This document shows positions 12,637-52,900 of a DNA stretch of 64,000 bases, piece after piece (position 1 is the first letter of the stretch; each line of letters opens with the position of its first letter). The notes under the pieces were generated by a model, which worked only from the letters and a program-made list of their open reading frames with translations, did no database searches and was not told the DNA's origin. Source of the stretch: Pecten maximus (lineage: Eukaryota). The position numbers and the translations under genes are program-made. The stretch is from assembly GCF_902652985.1 (NCBI RefSeq), contig NC_047022.1, positions 17,112,001 to 17,176,000 of the forward strand, in the 5' to 3' direction.

Positions 12637-13651
12637 CGAGGTCTGATTGATATGTTGTGAGCCTCATATTAAAGGATTTGAATTTTGCTGGACATATTGT
12701 ATTATTTTTCAACATAATCCCCTTCAGTATCTATTCACTTTTGCAAGCGGTGTTTAAGGGCCTCAATTTATATAACTCCTTTTCCTGGCTGTTCAGAAAG
12801 TCATCTACTGCATGTATGGTCATCATCTGGGTGCCTGAATTAGCTGTTTTCGTGAATGGCAGTCATGGCAATGACAGACTTTTGAATAGGAGCATTGTCC
12901 TGATGGAATAACACACCTTTAGTGAGCTTTCCGCGGCGATTCAGTTTAATATTTTCCCGTAACTGCCTCAGAAGTGAAGCATAGTATGTGTCATTCATTG
13001 TTTGTCCCTTTTGTAGATAACCTACCAGCAGTATATCATCTGCATCCCAGAAAACCGAGACCATAACCTTCCCAGCAGATGGAACAGTCTTTGCCTTCTT
13101 TGGCGTGGGAGAGCCAGGGTGTTGCCATTGTTTCCATTGTTGTTTTGCCTCTGGGGTAAAATGATGGACCCATGTTTCATCCATAGTGACTAATCTCTGG
13201 AGAAAATTGGCAGGATCTTCCTAAAAAAAGTTAAGATTAGTACGCGATAATATGCAACTGGTGTGCTTCTTATCAACTGTCAGAAGTCTTGGTACCCATC
13301 GTACCATCGTCACCATCGAAAGCTTTCTCATTGCAAGATCCTCGATCAGAATGGAATGTACTCTTTCCTGTCAAATGCCAACTCTACTGGCTATATATCT
13401 TTCTGTGACTCGTCTTACCGTCATAATAATATCATGAACTTTATTTACCAATTCTGCGGTTGCGGTTCAGGACGGGGGTCATCCTCAAGGCTTTGTCGGC
13501 CGCGCATAAATTCCGCCATCCACCTTTTCACTGTAGCATATGAAGGGGCATCTTTCCTTAGTGTTGCTACCATATCGTTATGGATATCCTTAGGTGTCAA
13601 ACCTTTTTATGCAAATATTGGATCACTGCTCTTTCACCGATTTTTGTCCAT
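12637..13651 (-). mobile_element. Decayed mariner transposon (irritans/Himar-like), transposase pseudogene with one TIR
   Basis: ATG at 13651 (MDK...RAVIQYLHKK...DAPSYATVKRW); MDETWVHHFTPE...SAGKVMVSVFWD...LFHQDNAP; C-terminus ...EGDYVEK* with stop at 12704-12702. Frameshifts present and the YSPDLAPSD segment is deleted. TA followed by CGAGGTCTGATTGATATGTTGTGAGCCTC at 12635-12665; the other TIR was not found. Confidence 0.9.
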
Positions 13652-27100: not shown

Positions 27101-27340
27101 CTAAACAATACAATACTTAACGAAATACATAAAACCCAGGCGTGTGAAAATCATTATTCTAGAAAAAAATGGTGAGCGGTTTTTTGACAATATCTAGAAT
27201 AGAAAGATTTTCTTTGTTACTTACAGCGCCAGGTAAAATTTGCTGTGGGACCCGACAAACGGTTGCTCCCATGCTTACACGCATGCGTGATTTTTAACAG
27301 CTGAATTCTCTGCTACTGTAATACAGATGTTGTGTCTGAA

Positions 27341-27374
27341 TATATAAGTGGCCAGCCGGACTGGACTGTCAGTC
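27341..27374 (+). promoter_or_regulatory. Core promoter of the FMO gene: TATA box plus initiator
   Basis: TATATAAG at 27341; Inr TCAGTC at 27369-27374, with its A exactly 30 nt after the TATA start and 38 nt before the ATG. Confidence 0.65.
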
Positions 27375-27408
27375 GGTCGCACGCTTTACCGACAGCCAGC
27401 CGAACAAA

Positions 27409-30400
27409 ATGAAAACAATAGCCATCATCGGAGCTGGATGTAGCGGCCTGACTGCCATAAAGTGTTGTATAGACGAGGAACTGATCCCTGTTTGTTTCGA
27501 AAGAGAAAATGACATCGGTGGATTATGGAATTACAAAGAAAATTCAAAAGTAGGAACCGGCAGTGTGTATCGGTCATGTGTTATGAACACCAGTAAAGAA
27601 ATGATGGCGTTTAGTGACTTTCCACCTCCTGAGGATTTTCCTGTTTTCCTACCACACAGATATGTCAATAACTATTTTCAACTTTACGCGGACAATTTCG
27701 ATTTACGGAAATATATAAAATTCCGTACTATTGTCACCCGGGTGGTCCCGTCTCCGGATTACGATCAAACTGGCTGTTGGGACGTGACGTATTGTTCATG
27801 TTCTGGATCAGACTTCGAAAAAGTTACCCGGAGATTCGATGGAATTTTGATCTGTACTGGACATCACACTTTCCCGATGACCCCGGAGTTCGAGGGAAAA
27901 GACGGATTCCAGGGAAAGGTGATGCACACACATAGCTACCGCTCCAACAAGGATCTCACAGACCAAAACGTTCTTGTGGTCGGTAAGTTAATCAGTGAAC
28001 ATTTTCTTTCGATTTTCTTTTTTTGTCACGTTGATATATTTCACAGTAGACACTAAGGTATCGTATTTGCAATACTAGGCAATTGCACGATATTTTCACG
28101 AACCCTTCTAATATAAAAAAGCAACAAACCAAAACACAAAAAAAAATCCCACAAAAACAACAAAAACCAAAAACAACTAAAACAAACACAAACAAAAAAC
28201 CGTCATATACATAATTAAACATTAAAAAACGACCGATACCGTGTTTCCGAATCAAATTAACCTGCTATATCTTTTTTAATATTTCACTTCACAAATCGTG
28301 TGATGCACTAAACTAAACATCCTCCGATACACCCCACTAAACATCCTCCGATACACCCCAATAAACATCCTCCGATACACCCGACTAAACATCCTCCGAT
28401 ACATGCCACTAAACATCCTCCGATACACCCCAAAAAACATCCTCAGATCCACCCCACTAAACATCCTCCGATACACTCCACTAAACATCCTCCGATACAC
28501 CCCACTAAACATCCTCCGATACACCCCACTAAACATCCTCCGATACACTCCACTAAACATCCTCCGATACACCCCACTAAACATCCTCCGATCCACCCCA
28601 CTAAACATCCTCCGATACACCCGACTAAACATCCCCCAATACACCCTAATAAACATCCTCCGATACACCCCACTAAACATCCTCCGATACACCCCACTAA
28701 ACATCCTCCGATACACCCCACTAAACATCCTCCGATACACCCCAATAAACATCCTCCGATACACCCCACTAAACATCCTCCGATACACCCCACTAAACAT
28801 CCTCCGATCCACCCCACTAAACATCCTCCGATACACCCGACTAAACATCCTCCGATACACCCCAATAAACATCCTCCGATACAACCCAACAAACATCCTC
28901 CGATACACCCCACTAAACATCCTCCGATACACCCCACTAAACATCCTCCGATACACCCCAATAAACAAGTCAAGTCATGTTTACTGAACTTATTTCCTTA
29001 ACAGATTTCAATAAATTTGATGTAAATTGTGGGTACTGGTATGGCATATGAAATTGCGTATTGTCATCTTATATATTAATGGGGTTTAACCCGATACACC
29101 CCCATAAACGTCTTCCGACAAACATCCTCTTTTATAACCTACGTTCTAAACGTTTTTTAAAAGCTTATTCCCAATATTTGAATCTTTTCTGACTGTTTTA
29201 CGTAATCTGTTTTTTATAGTGTTAATATATTTATCTATACTTGTAGTTCAGAAAATATAAATCAATCAATCAATCAATTCTGTTATATCACAAGTACAAG
29301 TTTATAGTTACAAAGTGGAAAACATAGTTTAATTTCGGGATAAATCATCTTAAACATGATAAAATATAAAATGCTAATACTGTATACCTGGTAATTTTCG
29401 TCTCCGTTTAATTTTTGCCATTTTCGCCCTTTGAAGATAGGGCGAATTTAAGATGAAGGCGAAAATTTCAAACTGACTTTAAGGATTTATAAGCCATAGT
29501 ACAAGGGCCAAGTGCAGTCAGATCACAAACATGCCCTCTTATTTTTCCACTGTAAAATCACGTACTATTCTTAGCATTTTCAATTAAAAAATGATACATA
29601 CTAAGTTATTTTAAAAAATCAGTCATTTTTTTTTTTAAATTATGTAGTCCGGTCATGATTAAAATGAAATACAGAGTGGTATCAAATTCCTGCCATGGAA
29701 AAGACTAATTTTATGAGTTAACCGTCGCTTAATTGTGGCTTCCATTCATGTACATGTGAACATAAATGATCATGTTTGCTGAAAATCACCCATGCATACC
29801 CGATACTAATTGAATCAGCAGTGACTAAAAGAAAATCTGAGCACAGGTAAACGTTCTTTGTTTCACACCTGATTACATTTCACATATCATGCTGGTAAGA
29901 CAATTGGGGAACTTGATAAGTCCCGAGTGGTCCGATTGCAACTGTATTGAGAATTCCGAACGGAATTTTTCGATTTTACAAAAGATGAAAAGGATATTTC
30001 TTGAAAATCATTTAGGGGGAATTTAAAACGGGGCGAATATGTTTTGTGTTGCTCAAGGGCGAAAATAATTGGGGCGAAAATTACCAGGTATACAGTATTC
30101 TGAAAAAGAACTGTTACATATATATGTCATTGGACAAATCGCTTATACGTGACTGATGTTAAATAGTGATATTGACTAGCAAACCAGTAAATAACAGATA
30201 AAAGGTTAATAACAGCACCGCTGATTATCATAAAACAATTATGGACTTTTTAATTGGTTGATATGCTGTGATATTAATCAAAAGGAAATATATTGACCGA
30301 GGCGAGGTAAAAAGCCCATAATTGTATAATATCAATCCATCTTATTGGCCTTGATGAAAGTCGCGTTTTAGGTTGTACGTGGGTGGAGAAAATAAAATAA

Positions 30401-33400
30401 AATAAATATCCCTTTGAGCTGTTTTGGTTTCCTTAAATAGAATTAAACTATACCTATTCAGATCAGAATGACATGACTGGGTCATGATCGTATTCTGTAT
30501 ACGTGACATTTGTTTTTTTTTATTTTATGTTTATTTTACAAGACATTAACAATTTACATACAATACACAATGCTATTCAGGGTCGGCAGTGTTTACATCA
30601 TAAACAATTCTGACAGGATTTTCTACCAGATGTTCTCAATATAATCAAATAACGATATCCAGTCAGTGCATTGTTTCAATTAGAAAAACAGAAAAAAAAC
30701 ATTATTATGCCTGTGACGTCATAACACTATAGTATCGTGAAATTCCATTTCTAAAGATACGCACTTACTGTCATTCGGAAGTCTCTGTTTGTAACTAGAC
30801 ACACAAGTAACTGCGCATTAGATACGAAATTTAGTAATAAATAAATTTCGTATTTGCCGAATAATGAATATAAAACTATACCATTCAGCTGTCCTGTCCT
30901 TGTAATCAAAAGGGGGCGAAAGTGTGAAGATTGTCAAGTGAAAAAGAAAGGGAAAGACGAAAAACACAAGTATGAATATCACATTTAAACGCAAAAATAA
31001 TTATAGATACATGCACACATTAATTCATGAATGATGAATTTTAAACAGCATCATAGTGCTTTTCGTTTTTCATGACTCGTCAGTTATGTTAAACCTTTTT
31101 ATTCTATAGAAAAAACTCTATTTCATATATGGTGTGAAAGGCTGGACGATGACTGATATAGTGTCAAAACTACACGGTATATGTATTTACCATGATTGTT
31201 AACAGACACACTTATACGTACACTTCTCTGTTACCACTTGAACAATTTCAAACTTCGGGTAGCACTATATTTACCTGTGATTACGGCCATAGGTCATAAT
31301 CAGATGCAGCCCTGGACGGATGTGACACACGTGTCACACTATTATTTATATGTATTGACTTGGCATTGGACGACGACGACATTTTTACAGTGTTACTTTA
31401 AACACAACCCTGTAACAGAAATAAAATACAAATTTCCATTCTTTCATTGTTTGATATGATTTAAATTTTAATTATGCAAATAAGATATCTACAGAAGTGC
31501 AAATACCATATCGACCGAAATGCAAACTCTGTATGTTAGTCATCTTAATGTAAAGACATAGTTCATGGAAGGGTTATACAGTTGATACTGTGGTGAAGAG
31601 TGCCATTCATTACGGACCAAAGATCAGTTCTTTCATCCTTCTAGGACTCGTCAAACGCTGTGGAAATACAGTGTATGTAAGAGAGGTTAGAAAAATGGGA
31701 AAAAAAGGTATTCGAAGGAAATATGAGAATTGCAGACATCCTTCAAAAATCGCTTTGATAACAATGTTGTATATACTGAGTATATATATATATATATATA
31801 TTTCTGCTACAGGAATTGGAAACTCCGGAGCAGATATTGCTGTTGATATCAGCCACGCTGCTTCACAGGTAGGTTGTCATTTACGATTATCTTACTTCTG
31901 TTGTACGCCAAATCAAACTACAAAATGACGTTCCTTTTGATTCTTTACAAATTAAAATGCTACAACGTAAACATATACGATCCCCAAGCTTGCTTGATGT
32001 GAGTAATTTAGTCAGTGCCACAATGTGAGTCTTGATTTCCGTTTTCACTTACACATATAACTAGAGTATTCACAGATGATATTGGCTATTACATAGGCTT
32101 TTGTATATTTTTTACCAAGCTACAAGGAAATATTTCACAAAGCAATTGACATTTTATCTTATGTACCACAATAACATTGGTAGAACTTGCAGATGCATAC
32201 ACATATTAAACGTTTTTCCTTTTAGAATATAAGATATATTTAAAAAAATTATATCTAAGATAGTTATTAATATGTTGAGTTTGGTCAACATAGTTATCAC
32301 AGACTACAGTCCATTGGAGAGGAAATTTCTTGAGATCTTCTCTACACCTTAGAAACTATCTTGGATATCTCAGATAATTTTTAAATGGACAATAAGCCAT
32401 CATTCCAGTCAATATTAATTATACAAAAGACAAACAAGATATTAACACCTTTCAATATAAATGGAGAGCTAGATACAGAGGAGCCAAAAAATAAATTAAA
32501 CTCAGTTATACAACTAGTTCGTCTTTCTACGACTCGTCAGTGAGACTAATGGCTTACAATGTTGATACGTAGCCGGCGATAGAAGACACCGATTTAGGGC
32601 CGAAGAAATTTAGATGGAGAGGCCCTATAGCCTGATATCATAAGTGAAATAAGTTGTAATGATCATTTTTTAATTATCGGATTTCAATTAATGTTAAGCA
32701 CATGACTATGTATGTTGCGCAATAGAGTTTAACATTCATTGAAGCACGTTGATTTTGTCTCCACCTAGCATCATCTGTGCCTTGATCTTAATAAAAATAG
32801 TTTTCAAAATGAGGTCTGATTATCCTGATTGACGGATTTTGTGGCCAATGTCGTCACTAACCTATTTTTCTCGATGTAGTCGTGACGTTACTTATATTTA
32901 TTTTGTATTTACATGGCAGGTTTAAATGGCCAATGTTTATTCTTCTGGAAGACCCAGCTACAAAAATATTTACATTCGGAATGGTGATAATCGGTAATTC
33001 ACGAAAATTGAGAAACCCGGATATAAATGACATTTTTTTGTATAATGGTGCCCTACCCAGACCCTACTTGATACATGCTACCCTTGTTTGTGGCCTATTT
33101 CAATGTTAACAAGCATGATACTAAACCAAAAAATATATTTACTTTAAATAAAAGGATTCGGTTTTAATGATTTCACACATATGTATGTTTTCGGAGCTCC
33201 CTTCAACAATGTAATGTTCAAATCTTTTCTTTTTATTTAACAGGTGTATCTAAGCACGCGCAGAGGTGCATGGATCATTAACCGGAAGGGGTTTTGGGGA
33301 CTTCCGGCAGATGCAATGGCTAACAGTAGATTTGCATTCATGCTACCAAAAAGCGCCCTCCAGTGGGGAGTAGAGAAAATGTCCAATTTCAACTTTGATC

Positions 33401-35971
33401 ACAAGAAATATGGCATTAAGCCAGCTAACAGGTGAAGCTACTAACATGAGGTACCCTGTATCTTACTGTAGATTACACGAGTACTATGTGAGGACTATTC
33501 GACTCTTTAGCAATAGTAATCGTGGTATACATTTACTCCTTTAAAATATCGTCGGAATATATTTATTCTTATCAGCCACAACATAAATTAAATTCAATTT
33601 ATTTTTCAATTAAGTTATCAAAATTAAGGATATTATGCTTATCGTAGAGATGTACAAGTTACTTTCACGTTTCTTTGAATTAATTTACGTAGTATTTTAT
33701 CCTTTTTGTGTTACTAATTTTAGAGCCTTGCAGTCACATCCCACTATAAACGACGAACTTCCACTTCGCCTGTTAACCGGATGCATCAAGATAAAACCAA
33801 ATGTACGAAAATTCGCACACGACAAAGTCTCGTTTGAGGACGGGAGTTCAGAGAAGATCGACACAGTTATTTTTGCCACTGGATACAACTACACGATACC
33901 AATAGTGGACGAATCCATTACGAGGGTGAAGGAAAATGAAACCTGTCTCTACAAGTTTATGTACCCTCCCCACCTGCAACACCCTACTCTAGGCATTATT
34001 GGACTTGTCCAGGCGATCGGAGCTGTCATGCCAATATCGGAAATACAATGCCGATGGTATACAAGAGTCATAAAGGGTGAGATTTGATTTTTTTGTTTCA
34101 CTTTTAATTTTAACAAGTTTGATTTCTACATTAAAATGAATACAAGAACAGTCATAATATATATCATTTTTCTCCAATTAGTAAAAACGAGTGTCTTAAT
34201 AGTTTCTGTCGAAAACGATCTAGTGTTAAAAATGTTATCATAGTTTTAAATCAACAAGGTAAAATTAATAGGCTATATAGAAATGTTGAGGATATGGATC
34301 TAGTTTGAAAACCACTGATTACTAATTCTAATCAAATTATATCAATACAAAATGTTTATAAAGCTACGATGAATTGCCCTACCGATAATTTATTGTAATA
34401 AGCTTAGGTGATTTGTTTTATCAATAATTGACCAATTAAAATGCTTCTCTCTCGCAAATTTGGACTATTCAAGCACTTATATAACGATGAAAGATATAGT
34501 ATAAGCCTCAGTTGTTAAAACATATATCAGTTGTAGCGGAAGTGACACCTGTTGGTGTCGTCTGCTGGTTTAGTTCTACCATCTCGGATAATTATTATAT
34601 AATAATTAAACCTTCAGTATTCTACATGATTAAATATATGATGAGCGATGAACTAGATAATGATGATTATACAGAATACGTGAAATTTTGATAGCTCAGA
34701 TACGAAAAGCAAAAATATCAAATTTTCTTCAAATTTCAAAATACATGTTTAGATATCAGGTTTTTTGGAATGATAAGACAAAGAAGCGGATAAAGGATTT
34801 TTTTCTGCTTTTATAAGGACTTTGCAAACTTCCTACGGAAGCGGAAATGATGGCTGACATTGCGCGAAAAAGAGAGACGGTTGCTAGTGGTTACTACACC
34901 GCTAAACGCCACACAATCCAGGTAGGTCACAATTATCGACATTAACTTATATAGAAGGATATTCCCCGTTTTTCAGTGTTTAATATTATTCTACAGCAGT
35001 CGATCGCGTATTTGTTGCGGAGTAAAATCCGGGTTTGCCAAACCATTTGCCGTTTGTGACATCGCTTTTGTTGGCGTAATCATTTCTAAGAGAAGAGAGT
35101 CCATCAATAAAAGCAGATTTTTTTTGAAAGACTGTGTAGAGTTAGTTAAATCATAAGAATTAAGTTGAATATATTTTTATGTTTTGGACTTATAACACAA
35201 AAACACAAAACGGAGTGTACTCTCACCATCAAACGCTACGCGTTTTATTTAGTGCACATTCCGTTTTTTGTGTTAAATCTCCATAACATAAACTATATGT
35301 ATAATTTAACCCCAAAGTAACTCAAAAACATGAAGACTAGCCACGATTGATCATGACACCTTTCGTACAAGACGATTCTACCACAAAGCTCATTTGAGTG
35401 TGAAACAATTACTTGAAACAAAGTTGAAGAAATAACCTCGTGAATATATTATGTTTGTGTTAAGTTGAAATATGTTTTCCTTTATCTAAAGACATTCTGG
35501 ATTGACTACATGGACGATGTTGCTGAACAAATTGGCGTGAAACCCAACTTACGGCGAATGGTTTTTGAGGACCCATATCTAGCCCTGAACTGTGTTTTCG
35601 GACCTTGCCTTCCTGCACAGTATCGTTTGGAAGGCCCAGGAAAATGGAACGGTGCCAAATCATCTATCCTAAATGCCATGAACCGGTATAGCGCCTCCAT
35701 GCGGTCAAAAGTTATGCCAAAGAATCATAGTTCGTCCGCTATGAAAAACATTGACAATAGTTCAGCTTCGACTGGAAACAAGATTATTGACCTTTTGACA
35801 CGCATTGGGATCAGGAAGCGTAACTCCGCTTTGACTCTAGACAAGAATGAACACTCGTCACTGATAACAGACACCACAAACAGCAATATTGCGACTTTCC
35901 CAACATTTCTGAAATCCTTCTATACTATTTTTATTGTTATGTTCCTGTTCTTTTGTGTGTGTGTTGTTTGA
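27409..35971 (+). CDS. Flavin-containing monooxygenase (dimethylaniline monooxygenase, FMO5/FMO2-like), 6 exons, about 584 aa
   Basis: Exons 27409-27982, 31813-31868, 33244-33431, 33724-34076, 34818-34921 and 35492-35971; all GT-AG, phases 1,0,2,1,0, total 1755 nt. Motifs: FAD-binding GAGCSG, GGLW, NTSKEMM, FMO signature FQGKVMHTHSY, NADPH-binding GIGNSG, FATGY, YRLEGPGKW, and a C-terminal hydrophobic anchor. Confidence 0.96.
28312..28967. repeat. 24-bp minisatellite (CCACTAAACATCCTCCGATACACC), about 27 copies, in FMO intron 1
   Basis: Near-perfect tandem array; generates stop-free octapeptide ORFs on both strands. Confidence 0.95.
29380..30095. mobile_element. MITE / non-autonomous TIR transposon with TA target duplication (Tc1/mariner-pogo type), in FMO intron 1
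   Basis: TA|CTGTATACCTGGTAATTTTCG ... CGAAAATTACCAGGTATACAG|TA: a perfect 21-bp TIR, with subterminal GGGCGAA motifs. Confidence 0.88.
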
Positions 35972-38854
35972 ACTTTGACAGAATGCTACGGATTTTTCGA
36001 ATGACGCGCCATGTATTTGCCAATTTAATAAAATTATCACTCAATAAGAGTAAGAAATGTCCCATTTTAAAGTTTTTTTCTTAGAAACTAGCATTGTTTG
36101 GCAAACGCATATGACTTGAATTGATATATTCAGGGATACTGCGTCGCGCTTAACATTTATCTGTCTGTGTGCGGCAAGCCGTCCTTATTTTTTTAGAATA
36201 TGTTTTTAGATAATGTCGAATTTGCTCTTATTATGATCACTCTCTTGTCTGTTTTCCTAAACGTTTAATGATGTATGTGTACTGACATTTTAGCAATAAA
36301 GCAATTAAATTGCAAATATTAACTTTGAATGGAATATTGATAGTTTCTGGAAATACTTATTCAGATGTATTAAGAAGTATATTCAGTCGTTCCGTTCATA
36401 GATCGAAATATAAATATATATATATATATACCTGTATATATTGTGTAAAATGTGTTCAGACATATGTATCCATTATACTCATGCACAGTAGTGTCTTTTA
36501 AACTTGTGGAATGAAATAACTTTTTAGAAGATCATGTAAACTAAGATAACATATAAATATTTGTATTGTTGCAAATTCTGATATTTTTATTCATTGAGGA
36601 GTAGTGAAGCTTAAAACTGTCCCATTTTTGATGTTACCAAAAGGCAGTTGTTAACTAATTTATAGTTTTTTTTTTTTTTTTGTAATTTTATCTCATTCTT
36701 TTGTTTCTCTTTAACGGTTTAAATATTCCATTTTCGTTGTGTTTTTATTTACTAATTTTTGTTAACGCTACACCAGGGATACGTTATTTAGGAAATGTAT
36801 ACTAGTTTTTATTATGTCTAAGTATAAAAGAGTGCTTTATGAAAACAATTTTACAAGGTCGAAAATACATTCATGCACATAAATTGATAATAATGTTTTC
36901 CAATACTGATATCAAAGAACGAATACATTATTATGTGATGCAAATGATGAGTATTATTGTTTTAAGGTGATATCAACGTTGAATTTACATTCTCAAGTAA
37001 AATGCCATCAAATACTTGTAATACATTGTAATACAACCGTAGTACAAGGGAGGTAATCACATGTTTAATGTTGTTGTAAAATGGCGTTTGTAATATAGAA
37101 AGTGGTGTAATATTGATTAATTGTTGAATATACGTTAAATATTTCTTTTCGCAATTGAAAATTGAAGATTTACTATATAGTGTTTTACGGCAGGAATTGG
37201 TGCATCAATACATGTATAAGATTTCGCTCTTCCGTTGGATTTAATCGAAAATGAAGATCGCTATGTAAATAATAAAGATGTATACCATTTAAATATATTC
37301 AACAATTAGCTCGCACTAAAATCTTTTGATCAAAATTAACGAAAGGGTTAATCTGACGCAGACTTAATTGATTTTGTTTAATTGTTGGGTTTCCTCGGCG
37401 TAAAAATGTATTTTTTTTTGTCTGAGGTTTTTAGTAATATAAATTTCGTCGTCGAAATACTAAGTTCTGTACGATATGAAGTCAGATATTTTCCGAGTTA
37501 AATTATTTACCAGGCAGTTCTGTTGTAATTACCCCGTTTCTTATTTGAAGAGTGTTACATGACCTTGATTGTTACCTAGATTTACACGAAATGTCGTCGA
37601 CGAATAATCTTACTCTTCCAATGCATAATTCCCTAAAACCTTTCTTGGGTTTCAATTTAAATGACTAGTGTGTTCATATTTTGTTTCCGCTATGTCGATA
37701 TTGAGTTAGGATTATTAGCATTTCCTTGACATATCTTTAATAATAATAATTGGAATAAAATAAAGGGAGATAACCATTCGATTTATGTTTATTAAAACGA
37801 CCATTACTTCAATTTACCATTTACGAAGCTATGACCTCTTAAGTATTTGACAAACAGATGAAATTCGACGTTGTTACCCACATTACATGATTATTATATC
37901 AAATGTTTCGAGAAGTTTCATTTTGCCTGTTTCAAGAGAATTGACACTGAATATGTTTGATTTTTGTACATAAAATACCTAAGTATTAACGTCCCCTCTA
38001 TGTAGAGACCAATATTCAGATTGGATATTCTGGAGAAAAAAGAATTCTCGATAATATTGATAACAATTGTATATAAAAAATAATTCCTTGTTTTTATGGA
38101 ATATAATTTATATTATATCCTCCTTATCCCCCTCGCTGCAAACAACTTAATTAAGCTCCCTTCTTTATTTTTGCAGAAGAATCACTGCTTTGAAATTAGT
38201 TAGCTAAAAGTGTTTCACAAATAAGCCATACTCAAAATTTTAATTTTAGTATTTACTCTAGAGGAAGGTCTAATTTGAAGATAAATACGATATATTACAT
38301 AGAAAAGTCGGCAATAATCCAATACTTAATTTTAAATAATAGGAATATGATTTTTACTGATAATCTTCTTCTATAGTATATACCTTTGTATGTTACGTAT
38401 ATTTGTATTTTACACGCTGTACCTTATAATGTGCCATATTTGCATTAAAATGTTATAAAATATTAATAACTTGTTCGTTATAACGTTATTATTCATTTCT
38501 CATTCCTATTATGCTAAAAACAATGATAAAATAAGTAACGAATCTTATGTATACGGATTTATTATGACAATGGTATATTGTGTAAGTTATCAACATAATC
38601 AACATTTTTTGTGCTATGATATCAATGATATAATATAAAATCCCTGGACGGACATATACAACATATATTTTCATGTTCATATATTATGTGCTGCTTGATT
38701 TGGAACGAATCAGCGATTCGTAATAGGAAATTGATTTTACACTTTAAATTAACCTGAAGTCAACAAAACAATGCATACAAATTAAGGAATAGACTCCAGC
38801 ACACAGCAGAGTTTCTTAAAATAGCTAGCTGCCATATGATTAGATTTTATATTG

Positions 38855-40623
38855 CTATTCAATTTGTATATTATTTAGAAACCTGTCTTCAAAATCTGTT
38901 TTCGTCATGGATGAATAACAAACCGTCTCGTAATTATTGTGATCGAAATGGTGACCTTGGAAATTAGCACTTGTAATCAACACCTGAGCAGTTTTAGCCT
39001 TAACACCAGCTGCAAACTTGCCATGAAACGTTGACTTAGGATTGGTTATTTTACTCATCACGTGATCTCTCACGTAACTACGATATTTTGGCGAGAATGC
39101 GTCAAGAATAGTCTTTACTAAGGATGCGTAAGCCTCAGGGTCGTCAGGTTTGTACCCGGGACCAAATTTCCAGTACGGAATGAACTTAGGGGGATTCTTC
39201 TTTGGCACACGGACGTTTGAAATTTCTCTGACGTAAATTGCCTTCAGATTTGCTGTCGACTGCTTGTCGAGGAGAAAGAAACAGATCTCAAGTAGTCGTT
39301 CGATGTCCATGAACGGAGTGACGATATAGACTTCCGTGGAGGCCTCGGAGAACCAACGCTGAAGGAGTGACTGCCATACGGGATAAATATCTGTTCTTCC
39401 ATTCACGAATCGACCGATAGATATCTCTTCTGGTGCCTTTAATTTTTTAGTTTCCTTTAAAGAAAGATATTCGATATATGTGATAAGGTCTTTAACGTAC
39501 TTTCTTAATCATAAATATGTACTGTGTAGCAATGTAACCGTCTATAGCTGATGACATTTGAATATTACACACCGACATTAATCAATAGACATTTACACAT
39601 AAAACACCTATACCATTGATAAACATATATAGCATATTCACGTGATGTTATGCCAAGTCACAAAAATTCTTCCTAAGTGTATTCCATCACTCAGTTGCTA
39701 AGCACCTGCAGAAGTTAAAATTGGATAATGTGTTCATAGTCTTAGTTAATTCGAACTCGAATAACGAGAATATCCTGCTGAACTCTTAAGTACAAATTCA
39801 GTTCCAACAAATATTTCTGTAAAATACACACAGTTACCTCGGATACTCGGTATTCTCAGGTTTATATATGACCCCAATGATTTCGAGATAATGAGGTCCG
39901 AGTATACTATATATCGATAATGTTTTTCCTCAAAGTTTAGGGCAAGGAGATTTGTTTAAAAAACAAAAACTTACTTTTTCTGAAGAGACATCTTCTTTTG
40001 CTTCAGTTTTCTTCGTTTTTACCTTGATGTCATTAGATGTGCTGCTGTCCGCTTTCCGTTTTTCATGCCTGTTTGAAATAAATCATAAAGCATTACTGTT
40101 TAGTTGGTAATATTTGCGGGGGATTTTATTTCAACGCGAAAATAAAACACCAGTGAATATTTACACATACACATAAAAAGTGTTTACTGCAGAATGCTTT
40201 ACAAGGCGTGGTTGTGCGAAACATAATATCCGGACTTGAGTCCGATTGGGACAACCGCAAAATATAAACCCTACGAAGATAACTTTCCAGTAATTACTCG
40301 TATACGTTAAAAGGATGAATACATTTTCATTTTGTCACATAATGACATAAGGTTCAGATTTTTTGAATATTTTATAAGAAAAATTGCTTGAAGGATTAAC
40401 CTTTTTTGACAGGTGCAGCTTGTTTGACTTAAATGCTACCTGGATTAATATCGAATGTATATAATATAGCATAACTTATGTTTTATACTCGATACAAATA
40501 CAGGAATGATTCTTCGTTCTACACTTATATCTGTTTCATAATATACAATTTTTTTGTTGTGCGTATGTGATAAAACATTTGTAAACAGAGGAATCAATAT
40601 ATCTACTGTTGTACTTACCCCAT
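38855..40623 (-). CDS. Single-HKD phospholipase-D-fold protein, putative nuclease (Nuc/BfiI-like), 3 exons, about 232 aa
   Basis: Exons 40623-40619 (ATG GG|GTAAGT), 40068-39975 and 39454-38855; phases 2,0; 699 nt. Protein: MGHEKRKADSS...EVYIVTPFMD...TFHGKFAAGVKAKTAQVLITSANFQGHHFDHNNYETV...*. Shows the PLD-superfamily pattern hhTPF...HxK...SAN...NxE. Confidence 0.82.
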
Positions 40624-44605: not shown

Positions 44606-47600
44606 TTACATGCTAAACGGCGTGTTGTTGTTGAACGCTTGTTCTACCCTTTCTGCCAAGCCTTTTTGGTCAATTTCCGTTAATGCACTTTTCAAAGTTT
44701 CAAGTCGTTTGTAAGGATCGATACTTTCGTTGTCCAGCCAGTGTAAAAGAAGCCTTAGTTTTAACTGATTTCCGTCTTGCGGGTTTGGAAAGATGCCAGC
44801 CAAGCGATCAGCCGTCACCATTGGTATCCCTAAAAGTGTTGCTAATGAGACGTACTCATTGTTGGGTATTTGTCTTGCAAGGAGAGTCATGCTTCTCTCT
44901 GAGAACACCTCTGCAATAATCAAAAATGCATTAGTTATTTAGAATTGAGGCAAGTAATAAGGTCTTATATAACCTGTCTGTCTACGATTTATATTTCCCA
45001 ATATTACCTGCTGAAAGACTCTTTTGAAATGAAAAAAGCCGAAAACATATAATCATTTCATGGAGTGAAACTTATTTGTAGAAATATCGTCTGCCGTGTG
45101 ACAGGTGGACAGTACAGATCAAGATATTCCTATGGGAGCTGAATGCATCAGATATTTGTTAAGAGAAGCGCAATTATGTTTGATCAGTATTGTTTAATGA
45201 TTACCATGTATTGTACAGTAAACCAAATTAGTATCACAGGTAGGCTAGATTAGGCAGATCTACATCCTCTAGTTTCACACATGTATTTATGATATATCAG
45301 AATAAATAATTTGTTTTGTCAATGCCATTTTTGCAAAGTCGCCGGAGTTAAAAAGACATTTAATCGATATTATGCTAATGTTCAAATTTTCATCTTCTTT
45401 GGCGTTCAGTGAGAAATTGAAATTTTAAGAATAGTTCTATAGAAAAAAGAATAGAAATGCTGCTGCATTAAAGGGGTATCTAAACAGCAGATCCAGTCAA
45501 AACTGTGATATTTTACAGGCCTATAAATTCCTACTATGGTGCAATTTAACAGAAGTAACATGGTTAACGTTTATTATATGTCTTGGCAAACCGGAGGACT
45601 TGCTGTTGACATGTAATTTGTTAAAATGTTTGTAAATGTCACCAATACATCAGACAAATGCATGTTTCAGGGGAACATAATTAACTCATTAAATTGCATA
45701 AATTGCACAAAATAGCCATGTCGTTTTGCTCAATAGTGTCTAAAGCACAAAACAAGAGCATAGGTTTTTACCAGATTTGACTTTATAATATGAATAAACA
45801 CTGTGTATTTTGACCTTGAAATGCAAATGGTGGTTGTGAATAATATCAAACAAATGTGGAATATAAAGAGGTGTTTTAAACATAAAAAATGTTCCTATTT
45901 GACACTATAAAAACCCTAGACATGGCAAGAAGATTGCTTTCAGAAAGAAATGTTTAACTGCTGAATTTGGGGTAAAATATGTCTATTTCAGAAAGAGGCC
46001 ACAAACTCAACTGTTTAACAATCTGATTTAAAACAAAATCCTTTTTACTATGATCAGAAGTCATAGGAGCATTTTCATTTGATTGAAATGCTTCTCTTTT
46101 TGCCATGTTTGTGTACTATTATTCACAACCACCATTCGCATTTCAAGGCTAAAACAAAAGAAGTGTTTTATACGTACATAAAGTAAAGTCCGGTCAAACA
46201 AATGCTCTAACCCTGTGCTATAGAACTTGTGAGCATAACAGCTTGGCTATTTTTCAGGTTTGGTCGTTTTTGTGACTCAGAAATACTCCATGCTATATCT
46301 TACCAAAAAATAGCTCTGTAGAAGAAACCGATAACATCCACACCAAATGTTTGGTGATTGTAAGAAACTGAATGTCCAAACAAATATGTTGGTATATTAC
46401 ATGACTATTTTTTGCATTTTTTCATATATCTATTCGTGTTTGAAATTTACCATTATTTTGCCGTATAGATGGCCGTTAAGAAAGCTTTTACTCAATGTAT
46501 GTAGTAATCTATTGAATTTCATTATAGGAGAGTTAAAGAAAAACAATGTTTTTCATACATTTATGAGCTGGTCGAAGACTACTTAATGATATTAATCTTC
46601 GTAAAAGAAAGCCTCTATAATTAGCGTTAATTGATAATTGTTTTGTTTCTATGAATGACCATTAGTAGAACAGTAGAACATAGATTACCCGCACCTGGCG
46701 AAACTCTGGGTCTGATTTCTGGGATAGGTTCATATTTCGGTTTGTGTTCATTTCGCGGTTGATTTCTAGATGACGATGTTTGTGGCAAAGATTTTTTGAT
46801 ATCTTCCATATTGATACAGACTACGAAGTCTTTATCTTCGAAGCTGTCGTATGGTACTGTCTCAGGTCCGACTGCGCCCAAGCTAGACAGTTCTTGATTG
46901 TAAGCAGTTGTTTGTAATCCTGGGGTTCTATTTAATGTAGCCTGGGAAGATGATAATGGACTGCCAGGGTTGTTTCTCTTCCGCAATTCTTTCAATGCAT
47001 GGAATACTGCATTGTGAAGACGCCGTCGGTTCCGACCACTGTCTAGGTCGTATTCCAGGGTAGCAAAATCTCCAATTCCAAATCCCGCGTTTCTCTCTAC
47101 ATGGAATGAGAGTGAGTTATCGTGATTGTTACGGTCAAAGATGATGAAACGACTCACTGGGGTGACGGATTTAAGAAACTTTATTGCCGTATTATTAGCC
47201 AACGAAACCCTCACCCTGTTCATGTTCTTTAAACGTATTGTCGGGGATGTACATGTAGGCAGTAAATCCATGCCCATTTCATTCGTTCGTTCCTTTTCCT
47301 TTTGTGATCTTTCATCCTGATTCACTATTTCTGAGCGTAAAAATAATATCTCATTTGCTTCTCTTTTAGTAAAAAGTAAAATGTTACACCTTGGGTCGTC
47401 GAGGTCGTAAACATATTTTACTGCGGCAATCGCATCTAATTGATGGACATTCGGTCTGTGTCTTACACAAATTACTCTGAAAGATAGAATAATTATTAAT
47501 TATTGAAAACATTCTATCAGTATGAATGGGCTCAAAAGTACAACAATATGAAGAATATGTACATTAAACTAATTTAGCACAGGTATTGCAATGAAAGATG

Positions 47601-49937
47601 AAACATGAAAATAGTAATCACTGAAATACTATCATCTATGTTTTTTCTATTTTTTTTATCAATGTCAGTTTTTAGGGTACCGTTTTGTTTCGTTGGGCTT
47701 GACTTCGTTTCGTTTCGTTTGAATCGTTTTGTTTCGTTTTGCTTTCGTTAAGCACTTTACAGGTACCCCGGTTTTCAGGTAAATATATTATTTTGGCGAA
47801 AATTAGCTTCAACTCGGACGGTATTTTCCCGAATCGGATCAAGCCACTATTACACATGTCTACCCATGTGCACGGCAGTACTCGAAGGACACCCCTCTAT
47901 GTATCTTCGGTACGTTTGGTTAGACAAATCAAAAGTAAACAGTGAGAAACCAAATCTATACATGTAGGAGTAATTGCCTACATAAAAATACTGCACCCAC
48001 TTTTTTATCTTCACATCAGCCAATATTGTCATTTTTAAGTTTCATTACTGAGTGTATATATTGTAGAAATTTTTACTGTGCATATTGAAGGATGTCAAAT
48101 AATTTCATTGACGAATAAAATACTCACGGACAGAAGTGATCAGTGGTAATTTCGAAAAGAGTTGGTTCAATTTCCTTGACGGTCGCTGTTTCCAGTTCAC
48201 GTACTTCATCGTCCTCGAAATACAGGACAAGTAGTGTAGCTATTTCGCTGGCTTCGAGCATATGGTCTAACGGTTGTATAGACACTGTCAGGTGTACTGG
48301 AACTAGGAACTGTCGGTCATGGAACACGTTCACCATGTCAGAGATTCCAAGTATTCCGTGATTTTCTCCCAGCGTTTGTTTCACTCTCTGTTGTATTTGA
48401 ATACCATCAAGGGAGGTAACCTATGTACAAAGTGATAAGAAAATATTAAAATTTTCAGACTCAGAAGCATTTGGATTGTAGGTGACAAAGATACAATGCA
48501 AAGAAATACCAGTAAATATGAGTTATGTCTTTTTGTCTTTTTGAATTCACTGTGTAATATAGGAGCTTGAAATAACAGGCGTTCTTCCTTTGTTTCTATT
48601 TTAGGGTACGAGGTAATTGAATAAAAAGGTGAAATATAAACCTTACGCGCATTTGAACATTTCGTCAATACCTGTAGGGCAAAATGACAAAAATCTAAGA
48701 CATGTTACAGTAAAAACTACACATTTTATGCTATCATCACCCTCAAAAACGTTTTTTTCCACCTACACATTTTACTCTATTATCACCCTCTTAAAATAAG
48801 CGGGCTGAAGTTAGCAGCGGATTCGTTATTCGTTATTGGGGATTCGAATAACGAATCCGCTGCCAGCAGCGGATTGGGGATTCAGTTTTTTATGTTTAAA
48901 TGATGTTTCTTTTTATTGACGTTTTGACGATTGGATTGAAATAACAAATCCGTTTCAGCCGTGGATTAGAGATTCAGTTACATATAAGTATTTTTCTTAT
49001 TATATGCGATTGGGGATATCGAATAACGAACCCGCTGCCAGCAGCGGATTGGGGATTCGAATAACGAATCCGCTGCCAGCAGCGGATTGGGGATTCGAAT
49101 AACGAATCCGCTGCCAGCAGCAGATTGGGGATTCAGGTTTTTTTTATGTTTAAATGATCTTTCTTTAAGTTGACATTTTAATGTTTGGATTTAAATAACG
49201 AATCCGCTGCAACAGTGGATTGGGGATTCAGTTACATATAAGTATTTTTTTCTTATTATATGTGATTGGGGATTCAAATAACGAATCCGCTTGATAAACT
49301 ATGATTGGAGATTCGATTTTACATTTTTATTTTGTGATTCGAATAGCAAATTTGTTGCCAATAGCGTATTGTGGATTCAGTTTATGATGTTTAATTGACG
49401 TATTTTATCATAAATTACGAAAATGGTAATTTGCGGGTATTACAATGATATAATTACTTGGTAATTCAATCAACAATAATGGAATTCTAGTTCAAATCTG
49501 CTGCCAAGAGTTTCTTTCTTGTGGGAGGTTTATCGTCTCTTTACAAGTAGACAAAGTTCTATGTTTCTTCGCCAGCACTCTATGTTATATATTGTAATAT
49601 ATAAAGACCAGAGTATCATTTCGATATAGCTGAAGGTTTGATTGGAATGCAAACATGTATACGGAATCTAAAATTATATCAGTAAAATAATCTTGGTTAT
49701 TATATTTATGCTACAAATAGGATAATATTGTTAAACTATTCTGCTGTTGTTCGAATCTCCAATCATATATTAAAAGGAAAAATATCAATTGAACATGTAT
49801 GTAACTGAAACCCCAAATCATATTTTATAAGAACTAGAAATGTCTGTAAGACATAAATGGTCCCGTCTTCACATGAAATTAGTTATCGATACTTGGATAA
49901 TGTTTGTATTTTAACCAATAAGGGGCCAGAATTTTTT

Positions 49938-49968
<31 letters not shown>

Positions 49969-52900
49969 ACAAAAATAAATAATGCCATTGTCTTTGTATA
50001 GCCAGACTGCATATTATACCAAATTTCATAAAAGTCGAACGATATTTAAGTATCGACCAATCAGAAATCTCTATTTGGCGGCCATCTTGAATCGTTGTTC
50101 TGTTTTTTTTTTTTTTTTTTAATTGTTTATAATGCGTGCTGTCATGGTATCATTTCTCCCATCAATATCCATAATCAGATAGAACAAACGCTATTACAGG
50201 ATATGTTTTAATAAAGTTTAATATTGAAGCGGGACGGGACGGGACGGACACGCGAACACTATTTATTAGATTTTTACCTGTGAAATATTGAGAATTATTC
50301 ATTCTATCAAAATGATATTTTGAAAAATATCACTTTTTCTGATTTGACCAATCAGAACACTGCTTAAAAACGACAATGCGGAAAGTAAAGATTTGAAATT
50401 ATAGGATGTATAATGTAAGATAGAATATAGGCCATATAACGTCACAATTTTGCGTACATTTGTAAGCCACTGACAAGGGACTACAATGGATTCTGGGAGA
50501 GATTGAGCTGTCTCGGTATATTTTACTATGGAATCTAATGAACAGAATATTTAACAGTATCTTCAGTAATACCAAATATATTTCATTCGTGTTGCTAATT
50601 TTTTTTTTTTTAAATATCAAATAATTAGCCACATTCATAAAATATAGTTGGTATTACTGAAGACACTCCTCTATACCACCATCCCCCACCATTTCATGGC
50701 GGGGGTATAAAAATAGCAATTAGGCTTAAGAAACTGAATCCCCAATCCGCTGCTGGCAGCGGGTTCGTTATTCGATATCCCCAATCCGCTGCTGGCAGCG
50801 GGTTCGTTATTCGATATCCCCAATCCCATATAATAAGAAAAATACTTATATGTAACTGAATCGCTAATCCACGGCTGAAACGGATTTGTTATTTCAATCC
50901 AATCGTCAAAACGTCAATAAAAAGAAACATAATTTAAACATAAAAAACTGAATCCCCAATCCGCTGCTGGCAGCGGATTCGTTATTCGAATCCCCAATCC
51001 GCTGCTGGCAGCGGGTTCGTTATTCGATATCCCCAATCATATATAATAAGAAAAATACTTATATGTAACTGAATCTCTAATCCACGGCTGAAACGGATTT
51101 GTTATTTCAATCCAATCGTCAAAACGTCAATAAAAAGAAACATCATTTAAACATAAAAAACCGAATCCCCAATCCGCTGCTGGCAGCGGGTTCGTTATTC
51201 GATATCCCCAATCACATATAATAAGAAAAATACTTATATGTAACTGAATCTCTAATCCACGGCTGAACCGGATTTGTTATTTGAATCCAATCGTCAAAAC
51301 GTCAATAAAAAGAAACATCATTTAAACATAAAAGAAACTGAATCCCCAATCCGCTGCTGGCAGCGGATTCGTTATTCGAATCACCAATCCGCTGCTGGCA
51401 GCGGGTTCGTTATTCGAATCACCAATCCGCTGCTGGCAGCGGATTCGTTATTCGAATCCCCAATAACGAATAACGAATCCGCTGCTAACTTCAGCCCGCT
51501 CTTAAAATATTTGTTTTTCGTTCCCCTCCCACACGTTTTGTATGTAACTTTCAGTATCACATGCGATCAGTATAAAGACAAAGTGATTATTTCTTTCACT
51601 TGCTGTATTAAAAACATTTCTTTTGATGTTCCTTTCTTTTAAAATGATTAATGAATATTGGAATAATAACATATACCAACCTCGATAGTGACCTGCATGG
51701 TACTCTCCACAGAATCGGGTGGGAATTCAATTTTCATCCTCTCATTTTCTGGATCAAGATTCTCTACACAACCTGCTCGAGTAACTTCAACAGTCTGTAC
51801 TTCAATTTGAGACGTTATGAATACAGCGTCAATATCGAGTTGATCTGTTTCAATACTCACAGTAATTTCCCCTGCCTGGATTAAAGAATAAGAACAGAAA
51901 ATAATCAGCATTTTCAATTATCCATCAATCATTTGTTCAAAAACTATATACACACTCTTTACGTCACAAGTACCAGAAAAATAATACATTACTTTCTTCC
52001 GTGGCTCTTACAACATCGGGCACAATCTGGATAGAGATATTGGGTCGTTAGCAGTTTTTGACTTTGGAAAAATACACCAAAAAGTCGAAATTAATCTTTC
52101 ATTAAAGTTAGTTTTAGTTTTTAAAATTAGTTTTCTTGTTTTTGCCCTTTTATCTTAAATATAAGTGAAACGATCGCTATAATCATACACTCATAAATAA
52201 GATGAAATTTTTCATTCGACATGAGGTTCGTGATATTTCAATTATAAGACTCAATTTATAATGAAAATACAGTCGAACCTTGTTATCGCAAAGCCAATGA
52301 GTTCATTGAAAATCCCGAAAATTCGATGTAATCGAATATATTCCATGTAAACTGTTTGCTCTAGCAACTGCATTTCGTTCGTTCGTTTTCCTCGATAGCG
52401 AGGTTTTACCTAGCCCGAGTTTCGCCTTGCCCTGACACCATGCCTGGTGTAGGGCAAGAGCGCACTACTATATGAAAACGTAGAATTCTCCAACACCGTT
52501 TAGTGTCGCTAAGATTTTGGTGCAAAGATAATAAGATCGGGGGTGACATAACACCTACTTACATATATGAATAAACGAGATATTTATTGACCCAAAAACA
52601 CATATTCAGTCCAATGTCGGTGTTCTATTCCGTTCGTATAGACTCTCGCTTTACGCTGGTAAAAAAAAACACTTGACTTGAAGCTATATTGCCCTATGAG
52701 TGCGCGATGGAGCGAAACGAACAATCTTTTTCGGATGAAGTTTACCGCTTATAATTTAAATATTAAATGTTACAGGTTTTTGAGAAAAAAAAGCTTAGTT
52801 TTCTTGATTTAAACCATGTAAGAATAAAACCACAATAGATGATAGTGTGTCTTTTTGGTCCATTGCGTTCCAATTCTGGTGATTAATTGCACCATCACTT

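What the first reader, a model, noticed from the sequence alone, without database searches (positions are those of the whole stretch)
38927..39025. Metazoan PLD-fold domain with a BfiI-like H-K-N-E active site but no HKD aspartate
Seen: FHGKFAAGVKAKTAQVLITSANFQGHHFDHNNYE, with His-to-Asn spacing 20, Asn-to-Glu spacing 12 and no Asp at HxKx4D. Known: the restriction nuclease BfiI uses H105/K107/N125/E136 and also lacks the Asp, whereas animal PLD1-4 and PLD6/Zucchini keep HxKx4D. The whole domain sits in one 600-nt exon behind a Lys-rich disordered N-terminus. Inference: a non-canonical animal PLD-family nuclease closer in motif to prokaryotic defence nucleases than to standard animal PLDs.
Basis: partly seen in the sequence, partly recalled or inferred. 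Interest (0 to 1): 0.7.

Follow-up and report, generated by a model that had tools for sequence, protein, structure and literature searches.

The report
Unnamed invertebrate nuclease with bacterial cousins
This scallop gene encodes a protein predicted to fold like phospholipase D enzymes and to pair with itself; it belongs to an apparently undescribed invertebrate family whose closest relatives are rare bacterial and archaeal genes, so it likely cuts DNA or RNA, possibly as a defence against viruses or mobile DNA.

Summary
The 600-nt last exon (39454-38855, minus strand) encodes a 199-aa domain with H144-K146-N164-E176 and Val where the HKD Asp would be. Scallop orthologues are 87-90% identical. 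The AlphaFold model (pLDDT 90) has a PLD fold (Z 8-13; 9-18% identity to all solved members). A homodimer is predicted, with E176 touching the partner's H144.

The BfiI comparison is only partly right. Animal TDP1 also has an Asp-less HKN motif with the same His-Asn spacing of 20.

The stronger result is the family. It has 169 representatives at 50% identity; named members are molluscs, a nemertean, a brachiopod and amphioxus. No Pfam family covers the domain, about 40% of members have lost His or Lys, and some carry nucleic-acid-binding domains. The genome has three paralogues plus separate PLD6, TDP1 and MITD1 genes. Its nearest relatives are a rare prokaryotic Cys-rich-PLD family (hhalign probability 99.3%; other PLDs score far lower), often near defence genes (9 of 11 loci against 5 of 11 controls, not significant).

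Best reading: a homodimeric, metal-independent nuclease (0.6), probably defensive. Activity and substrate are untested.

The parts
38855..39454 (-). Last coding exon, 199 codons plus stop; holds the whole single PLD-fold domain
   Evidence: ORF and translation; 90% and 87% identical to Argopecten and Mizuhopecten proteins; AF2 pLDDT 90; PLD fold
38927..39025 (-). Predicted catalytic motif: H144 (39025-39023), K146, N164 (38965-38963), E176 (38929-38927); V151 at the HKD Asp position
   Evidence: Sequence; intact H-K-N-E/D in 72 of 131 family members; E176 contacts H144 of the other copy in the dimer model
39140..39223 (-). Pro/Lys-rich loop, residues about 78-105 (6 K/R, 2 D/E), longer in the three scallop orthologues than in the other three rows of the first alignment
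   Evidence: Alignment A1; pLDDT 53-65 over residues 81-100; charge count
39455..39974 (-). Intron 2, GT-AG, 520 nt
   Evidence: Junction in one contig of run X2
39975..40068 (-). Coding exon 2 (94 nt): charged, Lys-rich N-terminal tail with a KRK stretch shared with both scallop orthologues
   Evidence: Splice signals and translation; orthologue N-termini; spliced contig
40619..40623 (-). Predicted coding end of exon 1 (ATG plus 2 nt, followed by a GT donor); would give a 232-aa protein matching the 231/233-aa orthologues
   Evidence: Inference from sequence and orthologue length; no junction contig seen
38498..38854 (-). Probable 3' UTR
   Evidence: Contigs run from inside the exon to 38498-38750 in runs X3, X4, X5, X6; these runs are only guessed to be RNA

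Best explanation
The gene encodes a small single-domain PLD-superfamily enzyme that is predicted to pair with itself and likely works as a metal-independent nuclease, probably against foreign or mobile nucleic acid. Shown: an intact spliced gene, conserved in three scallop genera, with H144-K146-N164-E176. Predicted: a PLD fold, and a two-fold dimer in which the two motifs form one site and E176 sits against the partner's H144. Inferred from established PLD chemistry (PMC2853115): one His would attack the scissile phosphate to form a phosphohistidine, the other would protonate the leaving group and then activate water, with Lys and Asn holding the phosphate. The missing Asp likely goes with a longer beta-hairpin (His-Asn 20 or more instead of 17) and is not a loss of catalysis. 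Substrate class is inferred from fusions in relatives (RNase H1 hybrid-binding domain, CCHC knuckles, Mrr N-terminal domain, Cys-rich putative Zn domains). This copy has none of them and would rely on its charged tail and basic loop or on a partner. A defence role is the weakest step (about 0.4 on its own).
For: Fold: Foldseek's top hits are the PLD nucleases R.NgoAVII (E 6.9e-6) and SauUSI (1.9e-5). The top 28 of 48,161 chains in the VIA search (Z 13.2 to 5.2) are all PLD-fold by their titles and my recall of those families; unrelated folds start at Z 4.0. Dimer: ipSAE 0.56 against best control 0.00, runs agree in at least 87% of contacts, pLDDT at least 79. That mark was reached by 21 of 30 solved microbial homodimers and 0 of 23 monomers, and by 17 of 29 eukaryotic homodimers (animals 7 of 16; only 1 of 7 with no older solved relative) and 0 of 30 monomers. 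Like dimers are solved (Nuc, Zucchini, BfiI), so the pass may come from memory. Four relatives (P0110, P0135, P0136, P0151) carry two motifs in one chain (read by eye), as expected if two domains make one site. Conservation: 72 of 131 members keep H-K-N-E/D. Fusions: Cauli_VI in P0005 (E 1e-18); zf-CCHC in 4 of 89 scanned and Mrr_N in 1 of 89. Prokaryotic sister family: H, K and N are invariant in 17 of 17 rows; reciprocal HMM scores and hhalign 99.3%; tree with 13 other PLD domains. All 6 RE_NgoFVII-type domains in that tree also lack the Asp, while the other 7 outgroup rows keep it.
Against: No activity was measured, and the PLD fold also serves lipases, synthases and pseudo-enzymes. The best single structural match is the non-catalytic FAM83A domain (Z 13.2, rmsd 2.7, 140 aligned; non-catalytic status recalled), with phosphatidylserine synthase at Z 11.0. 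54 of 131 members lack His or Lys, so the fold is kept for non-catalytic use in many lineages. The domain is only mildly basic (27 K/R, 22 D/E). The Cauli_VI fusion is a single protein whose 84%-identical relative lacks it. The paralogues' N-terminal domain has no significant structural match (best Z 5.9; RNase H3 N-domain Z 4.5). Defence neighbours: 9 of 11 loci against 5 of 11 controls, one-sided Fisher p 0.09. Three copies with 72-90% orthologue identity look more like conserved genes than an arms-race expansion.
Confidence: 0.6

Rival explanations
1. A housekeeping nucleic-acid end-processing phosphodiesterase (TDP1-like adduct removal, or Zucchini-like small-RNA processing) rather than a defence nuclease.
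For: HKN-type motif with TDP1's spacing of 20; many TDP1 chains among Foldseek hits at E 2e-4 to 2e-3; strong orthologue conservation; a KRK stretch in the tail that could be a nuclear signal (inference); UniRef's automatic name for P0003 is 'Tyrosyl-DNA phosphodiesterase 1'.
Against: True TDP1 and PLD6 genes lie elsewhere in the genome. TDP1 is a two-domain monomer and this is a single domain. VIA Z to TDP1 is only 5.2-8.6. Repeated loss of catalytic residues and varied fusions are unusual for housekeeping repair.
Confidence: 0.15
2. A lipid- or small-molecule-acting phosphodiesterase (cardiolipin-hydrolysing like MitoPLD, or cleaving cyclic oligonucleotide messengers).
For: Same fold and chemistry; single-domain dimeric mitochondrial phospholipase is an established case (PMC2853115); lipid-acting enzymes score Z 8-11.
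Against: No membrane anchor or signal peptide is evident in the 231/233-aa orthologues (by eye). Every recognised fusion in the family is a nucleic-acid-related domain. The canonical lipid-type PLD domains sampled score 10 bits or less against both family HMMs.
Confidence: 0.13
3. A catalytically silent or near-silent scaffold or nucleic-acid sensor, like FAM83 or MITD1, in which the motif is residual.
For: FAM83A is the top VIA match; 54 of 131 members, including this genome's C7 paralogue, have lost His or Lys.
Against: This lineage keeps all four residues unchanged in three scallop genera, and H, K and N are invariant in the prokaryotic family. Pfam PF07894 finds nothing in this genome at E up to 1.
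Confidence: 0.1

Closest known systems
BfiI / R.NgoAVII / SauUSI (RE_NgoFVII-type, PF09565) PLD nuclease domains
   Same: Single PLD domain per chain; His-to-Asn/Asp spacing 20 (BfiI H105-N125, NgoAVII H104-D124); Asp-less long hairpin in 6 of 6 sampled PF09565 hits; top two Foldseek entries.
   Different: 9-18% identity; no B3 or helicase domain; Asn-Glu spacing 12 against 11 (BfiI) or 13 (NgoAVII); PF09565 hits only 1 of 89 members, below cut-off.
TDP1 (PF06087)
   Same: Animal PLD-superfamily enzyme with HKN instead of HKD and His-Asn spacing 20.
   Different: TDP1 is a two-domain monomer on a separate multi-exon gene here; this protein is 232 aa with one domain.
Nuc / NucT / PLD6-Zucchini / DrmC (PLDc_2, PF13091)
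   Same: Small single-domain PLD proteins, Z 8.4-11.1; DrmC shares the ITSAN segment; weak sub-threshold DrmC, NucT and PLDc_2 hits in several members.
   Different: The sampled DrmC-like, Nuc-like and PLD6 sequences keep HxKx4D with spacing 17; scallop PLD6 is a separate gene.
FAM83 (PF07894) and MITD1 (PF16565) PLD-like domains
   Same: Fold; FAM83A is the highest VIA score (Z 13.2, rmsd 2.7, 140 aligned, 10% identity).
   Different: No sequence match; MITD1 is a separate gene; their lack of catalytic activity is recalled, not tested.
Unnamed prokaryotic Cys-rich-PLD family found here (e.g. P0146, P0150, P0152, L007-L018)
   Same: Shares the N-terminal Trp helix, the P and R positions, FHAK..AG, S.N and the terminal Glu.
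   Different: Carries N-terminal CxxC putative Zn-binding domains; no PADLOC model matches it at E 1e-8; function unknown.
RNase LS / RnlA family (architecture analogy only)
   Same: A nuclease that takes either a caulimovirus viroplasmin domain or a TBP-like domain at its N-terminus, which was read as RNA:DNA-hybrid targeting (PMC3710099).
   Different: HEPN catalytic domain, not PLD; here the TBP-like call is only a lead.

Membership tests
PLD superfamily | PLD alpha/beta fold | tested here: met
   AF2 pLDDT 90.2, pTM 0.87; VIA Z up to 13.2, unrelated folds 4.0 or less; Foldseek 20 matches at E up to 0.001
PLD superfamily | HxK motif with downstream S.N and acidic residue | tested here: met
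   H144, K146, S162-A-N164, E176
PLD superfamily | Two motifs forming one active site | tested here: inconclusive
   Homodimer model passes (0.56 against control 0.00; E176 with partner H144) but may reflect solved look-alikes
PLD superfamily | Metal-independent phosphohistidine catalysis | not testable with these tools
   Needs an assay
PLD6 / Zucchini | HxKx4D...GSxN with spacing 17 | tested here: not met
   V151, TSAN, spacing 20; a canonical PLD6-like gene lies on contig C1
PLD6 / Zucchini | N-terminal membrane anchor and CCCH finger (features recalled) | tested here: not met
   N-terminus is a short charged tail with no Cys in exon 2 or the orthologue tails
TDP1 | Two HKN motifs in one chain; PF06087 | tested here: not met
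   One motif; no PF06087 hit; separate TDP1 gene on C3
TDP1 | HKN without Asp, His-Asn 20 | tested here: met
BfiI / NgoAVII-type restriction nucleases | H-K-N/D-E site with His-to-Asn/Asp 20 | tested here: met
   (Asn-Glu differs by one residue)
BfiI / NgoAVII-type restriction nucleases | C-terminal B3 DNA-recognition domain | tested here: not met
   Protein ends 23 aa after E176
BfiI / NgoAVII-type restriction nucleases | Absence of the HKD Asp in BfiI itself | not tested
   BfiI sequence not retrieved; 6 of 6 sampled PF09565 hits lack it
DISARM DrmC | NF038319 above cut-off 133 bits; HxKx4D | tested here: not met
   11.9 bits, E 0.12; sampled DrmC keeps the Asp
FAM83 | PF07894 match | tested here: not met
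   No match in this genome at E up to 1 or to the protein, despite top VIA Z
MITD1 | MIT domain plus PF16565 | tested here: not met
   PF16565 hits a separate gene on C6 only
TBP-like hybrid-binding domain (RNase H3 / RnlA N-domain), for the paralogues' N-terminus | Helix-grip fold matching DUF3378 / RnlA | tested here: inconclusive
   Atlas features 0.83-0.87 and TM 0.40-0.44; VIA Z 4.5, rmsd 3.1, 68 aligned, 16% identity to RNase H3 2-70, not above other folds; Foldseek E about 0.1-0.2; DUF3378 E 0.14 in P0102

The most novel reading that the evidence does not exclude
An unrecognised prokaryote-animal conserved immune nuclease. A rare stand-alone prokaryotic defence gene (Cys-rich PLD) has a sister clade in invertebrates that diversified into active enzymes and pseudo-enzyme regulators and repeatedly took on RNA:DNA-hybrid-binding modules (RNase H1 hybrid-binding domain, TBP-like domain, CCHC knuckles), as RNase LS did. 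It would cut replication or reverse-transcription intermediates of viruses and retroelements.
Probability: 0.2. Interest if true: 0.85.

Novelty: new variant of a known kind. Interest (0 to 1): 0.64.

Why it matters
Known animal PLD-fold nucleic-acid enzymes are few (PLD6/Zucchini, PLD3/4, TDP1; list recalled). This adds a separate lineage that Pfam, NCBIfam and PADLOC miss and that UniRef mislabels as TDP1. Its prokaryotic sister family is small enough to test at once for phage defence in laboratory E. coli, and the 199-aa scallop domain is easy to express. If both are defence nucleases, this is a further case of shared bacterial and animal immunity, with a built-in set of active, dead, tandem and fused forms for dissecting regulation. 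It may matter for antiviral biology of farmed bivalves.

Tried and rejected
Sequence searches of the single protein found no PLD family: Pfam, PDB by sequence or profile. A word-based search for longer fused forms found none of 295 candidates (weak evidence). Orthology to PLD6, TDP1, MITD1 or FAM83 was rejected. A chance ORF or pseudogene was rejected. No viral member of the animal family was found (0 of 64 pattern matches), and a metagenome scan gave 1 locus of 251 matches. Broad Asgard inheritance is not supported: 2 of 301 genomes of that phylum match the prokaryotic profile, one being the seed; 1 of 400 scored in the class of G001, the seed only, with one genome not scored. Direction of transfer cannot be told, since neither group nests in the other. 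Defence-island enrichment is not significant by fixed rules (11 of 11 against 8 of 11 at E 1e-8, p 0.11; 9 of 11 against 5 of 11 at E 1e-20, p 0.09). It reaches p 0.015 (8 of 11 against 2 of 11) only after I removed by judgement hits that look like housekeeping helicase, SMC/RecN-type ATPase and cysteine desulfurase genes, which is post hoc. L011 (4-kb contig) was left out of these counts. The exon 1 junction was not seen in 8 runs. Runs X7-X13 with small word shares give no evidence beyond two short unspliced contigs in X7. Earlier-findings look-ups gave nothing for this family and two notes on an unrelated PD-(D/E)xK family.

Full report
1. Observation. The minus strand carries an open frame at 38855-39508. 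From the AG acceptor at 39454 it gives a 199-aa product, P0001, with H144, K146, V151, N164 and E176. Exon 2 is 40068-39975, and the junction to exon 3 appears in one contig of run X2. Exon 3 and its downstream flank are covered by contigs in runs of three studies, P1, P2 and P7, whose RNA status is a guess or unrecorded. A first exon ending in ATG plus two bases at 40623-40619 would give 232 aa, in register with the 231- and 233-aa orthologues, but no contig shows it. The motif alone would prove little: a relaxed version occurs in 22 of 100 shuffles of the window.

2. The gene is conserved. Proteins of Argopecten irradians and Mizuhopecten yessoensis are 90% and 87% identical over all 199 aa, so the window is most likely from a scallop (inference). 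UniRef's automatic name for one of them is TDP1. That is wrong: this genome has a separate multi-exon TDP1, a canonical PLD6-like gene with HxKx4D and GSFN, a PLD3/4-like exon (family label from my reading of the motif) and MITD1. FAM83 was not found.

3. Fold and assembly. An AlphaFold2 model from a 91-sequence alignment has pLDDT 90.2 and pTM 0.87. Foldseek ranks R.NgoAVII (E 6.9e-6) and SauUSI first, then TDP1, polyphosphate kinase, FAM83A, MITD1, BfiI, NucT, Nuc and Zucchini. VIA gives FAM83A 13.2, SauUSI 11.6, FAM83B 11.3, NucT 11.1, Nuc 10.6, BfiI 10.4, mouse Zucchini 10.1 and NgoAVII 9.3, all at 9-18% identity, with unrelated folds at 4.0 or less. The fold is therefore secure, but no solved protein is a specific parent. 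The two-copy prediction scores 0.56 against a best control of 0.00, with at least 87% contact agreement and pLDDT of at least 79. The interface includes 141-147, 160-163, 169 and 172-177, and E176 touches H144 of the other copy. The calibration counts are 21 of 30 microbial homodimers and 0 of 23 monomers; 17 of 29 eukaryotic homodimers, but 1 of 7 with no older solved relative. Because Nuc, BfiI and Zucchini dimers are solved, the pass shows likeness, not binding.

4. The family. A six-sequence profile finds 169 representatives at E up to 0.001 among 1.84 billion, of which the best 150 were listed. Named members are bivalves (Argopecten, Mizuhopecten, Sinanodonta), gastropods (Biomphalaria, Babylonia, Batillaria, Nucella), the nemertean Tubulanus, the brachiopod Lingula and two Branchiostoma species. 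Most members are unnamed, so 'animal-like' is an assumption for them. Of 147 animal-like proteins, 131 had residues at the His, Asn and Glu columns. Of these, 72 keep H-K-N-E/D, 5 keep H and K only, and 54 lack H or K; some fragments may be misaligned. None of 77 H-K carriers has Asp at +7, and 43 of 77 have the 20/12 spacing. This genome has three members: this gene, a C3 paralogue (33% identical) and a degenerate C7 paralogue (28%). Of 89 hits scanned against Pfam, none passes a PLD-family cut-off; six have sub-threshold PLDc_2 hits, four carry CCHC knuckles and one carries Mrr_N. One amphioxus protein carries the RNase H1 N-terminal domain. Many spiralian members share an N-terminal domain that folds confidently (pLDDT 88) and resembles RnlA and RNase H3 N-domains only weakly.

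5. Prokaryotic sister family. The tail of the profile search held Cys-rich proteins sharing the Trp helix, FHAK..AG, S.N and Glu. A pattern from them found 12 loci among 28 matches in GTDB genomes: Proteobacteria, Bacteroidales, Bathyarchaeia and one Promethearchaeota. There were also 29 plasmid records and one viral contig. An animal-only HMM scores the 19 prokaryotic proteins at 26-54 bits. Other PLD domains (from 60 loci: PLDc_2, DrmC and RE_NgoFVII hits and scallop PLD6/PLD3-like exons) score 9 bits or less, except one archaeal two-domain protein at 27.9. The prokaryote-only HMM scores its best animal-like hits at 40-52 bits (P0001 41.8) and outgroups at 10 or less. hhalign gives probability 99.3%, E 1.6e-20 over 139 columns. 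P0122, first labelled animal, is Cys-rich and was moved to the prokaryotic group. In a 132-row FastTree the two groups are separated by one branch (SH 98). In a 44-row IQ-TREE quick tree with 13 outgroup domains they form a joint group (SH-aLRT 93) with each side at 86, unstarred and with long branches. The prokaryotic family is rare. PADLOC has no model for it at E 1e-8, but restriction-modification, AbiEi, SoFic, OLD/AriA and PDC genes lie within 8 kb in most loci. Against arbitrary stretches of the same 11 genomes the excess is 9 of 11 against 5 of 11 (p 0.09): suggestive only.

6. Mechanism. Established chemistry: PLD enzymes use two HXK motifs, from two domains or two subunits, in a metal-independent two-step reaction through phosphohistidine; Nuc and BfiI do so as homodimers (PMC2853115, passages). 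BfiI's site is H105, K107, N125, E136 and NgoAVII's is H104, K106, D124, E137 (PMC4267654, passages). The scallop protein has the equivalent set and a predicted dimer that joins them, so a nuclease is the most likely function (0.6). In the sampled outgroups the Asp is present in the 7 short-hairpin domains and absent in the 6 longer RE_NgoFVII-type ones, so spacing and loss of the Asp look like one structural feature (inference). It is not specific to prokaryotes: TDP1 has HKN motifs with H263-K265-N283 (PMC5778467, passages), and has itself been proposed to derive from restriction-system HKD domains (PMC3417536, passages). The link to hybrids is by analogy: RNase LS proteins swap a viroplasmin domain for a TBP-like domain, which was read as hybrid targeting (PMC3710099, passages), and the RNase H3 N-domain binds hybrids much like the RNase H1 hybrid-binding domain (PMC4132731, abstract). 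This copy lacks both modules.

7. Novelty. Nine full-text searches listed no paper describing this animal family or its prokaryotic sister. I saw listings and abstract starts for most, and passages of PMC11442185 and PMC3597702, neither of which showed it in the passages seen. The library lacks most subscription journals and I read no supplements, so prior mention is possible. I file it as a new variant of a known kind: a distinct family of the PLD superfamily, not a member of PLD6, TDP1, BfiI-type, DrmC, FAM83 or MITD1.

8. Verdict. Observation confirmed; interpretation partly supported; interest 0.64. The boldest reading not excluded is a prokaryote-animal shared defence nuclease aimed at RNA:DNA hybrids (probability 0.2, interest 0.85).

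Noticed in passing
window 44606-53558, minus strand: Spliced multi-exon gene 4 kb upstream on the same strand, ending in a death-like domain (PF20690, E 0.019, below cut-off). Junctions 47476/48128 and 44910/46695 are seen in contigs. It has its own stop, so it is not fused to the PLD gene.
   Followed up: partly
window about 27340-35971, plus strand: Flavin-containing monooxygenase gene (PF00743, E 7.5e-41 and 5e-25 for two exons), convergent with the PLD gene. Contig cover in run X4 over 36000-38300 suggests a long 3' UTR.
   Followed up: no
G000:C3:39859171-39868476 (L002, L005): Paralogue with an N-terminal helix-grip-like domain. Its motif has Ser where the Argopecten-type orthologues have the Asn. 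Two near-duplicate short exon-like stretches lie between the two domain exons.
   Followed up: partly
G000:C7:23790351-23794720 (L024, L025): Third paralogue that has lost His, Lys and Asn yet is 72% identical to a relative, P0079: a conserved pseudo-enzyme.
   Followed up: partly
P0110, P0135, P0136, P0151: Unnamed relatives with two PLD motifs in one chain, grouped loosely in the tree; source organisms unknown.
   Followed up: no
L019 8851-10188; L020 8980-10179: Prokaryotic homologues sit alone between traU and a recT/YqaJ block on a conjugative plasmid, and beside an AAA-ATPase/helicase pair, DUF4238 and RES genes on a Rhizobium plasmid.
   Followed up: partly
L039 (G011:C77): An archaeal two-domain PLD protein of 514 aa scores 27.9 bits against the animal HMM, the only outgroup above 9 bits; it may be a further related branch.
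   Followed up: no
window 12843-13220, 61530-63843, 28279-28998: Mariner-type transposase fragment (PF01359), a TNP-like transposase (PF21787) in pieces, and a 24-nt-unit tandem repeat.
   Followed up: no
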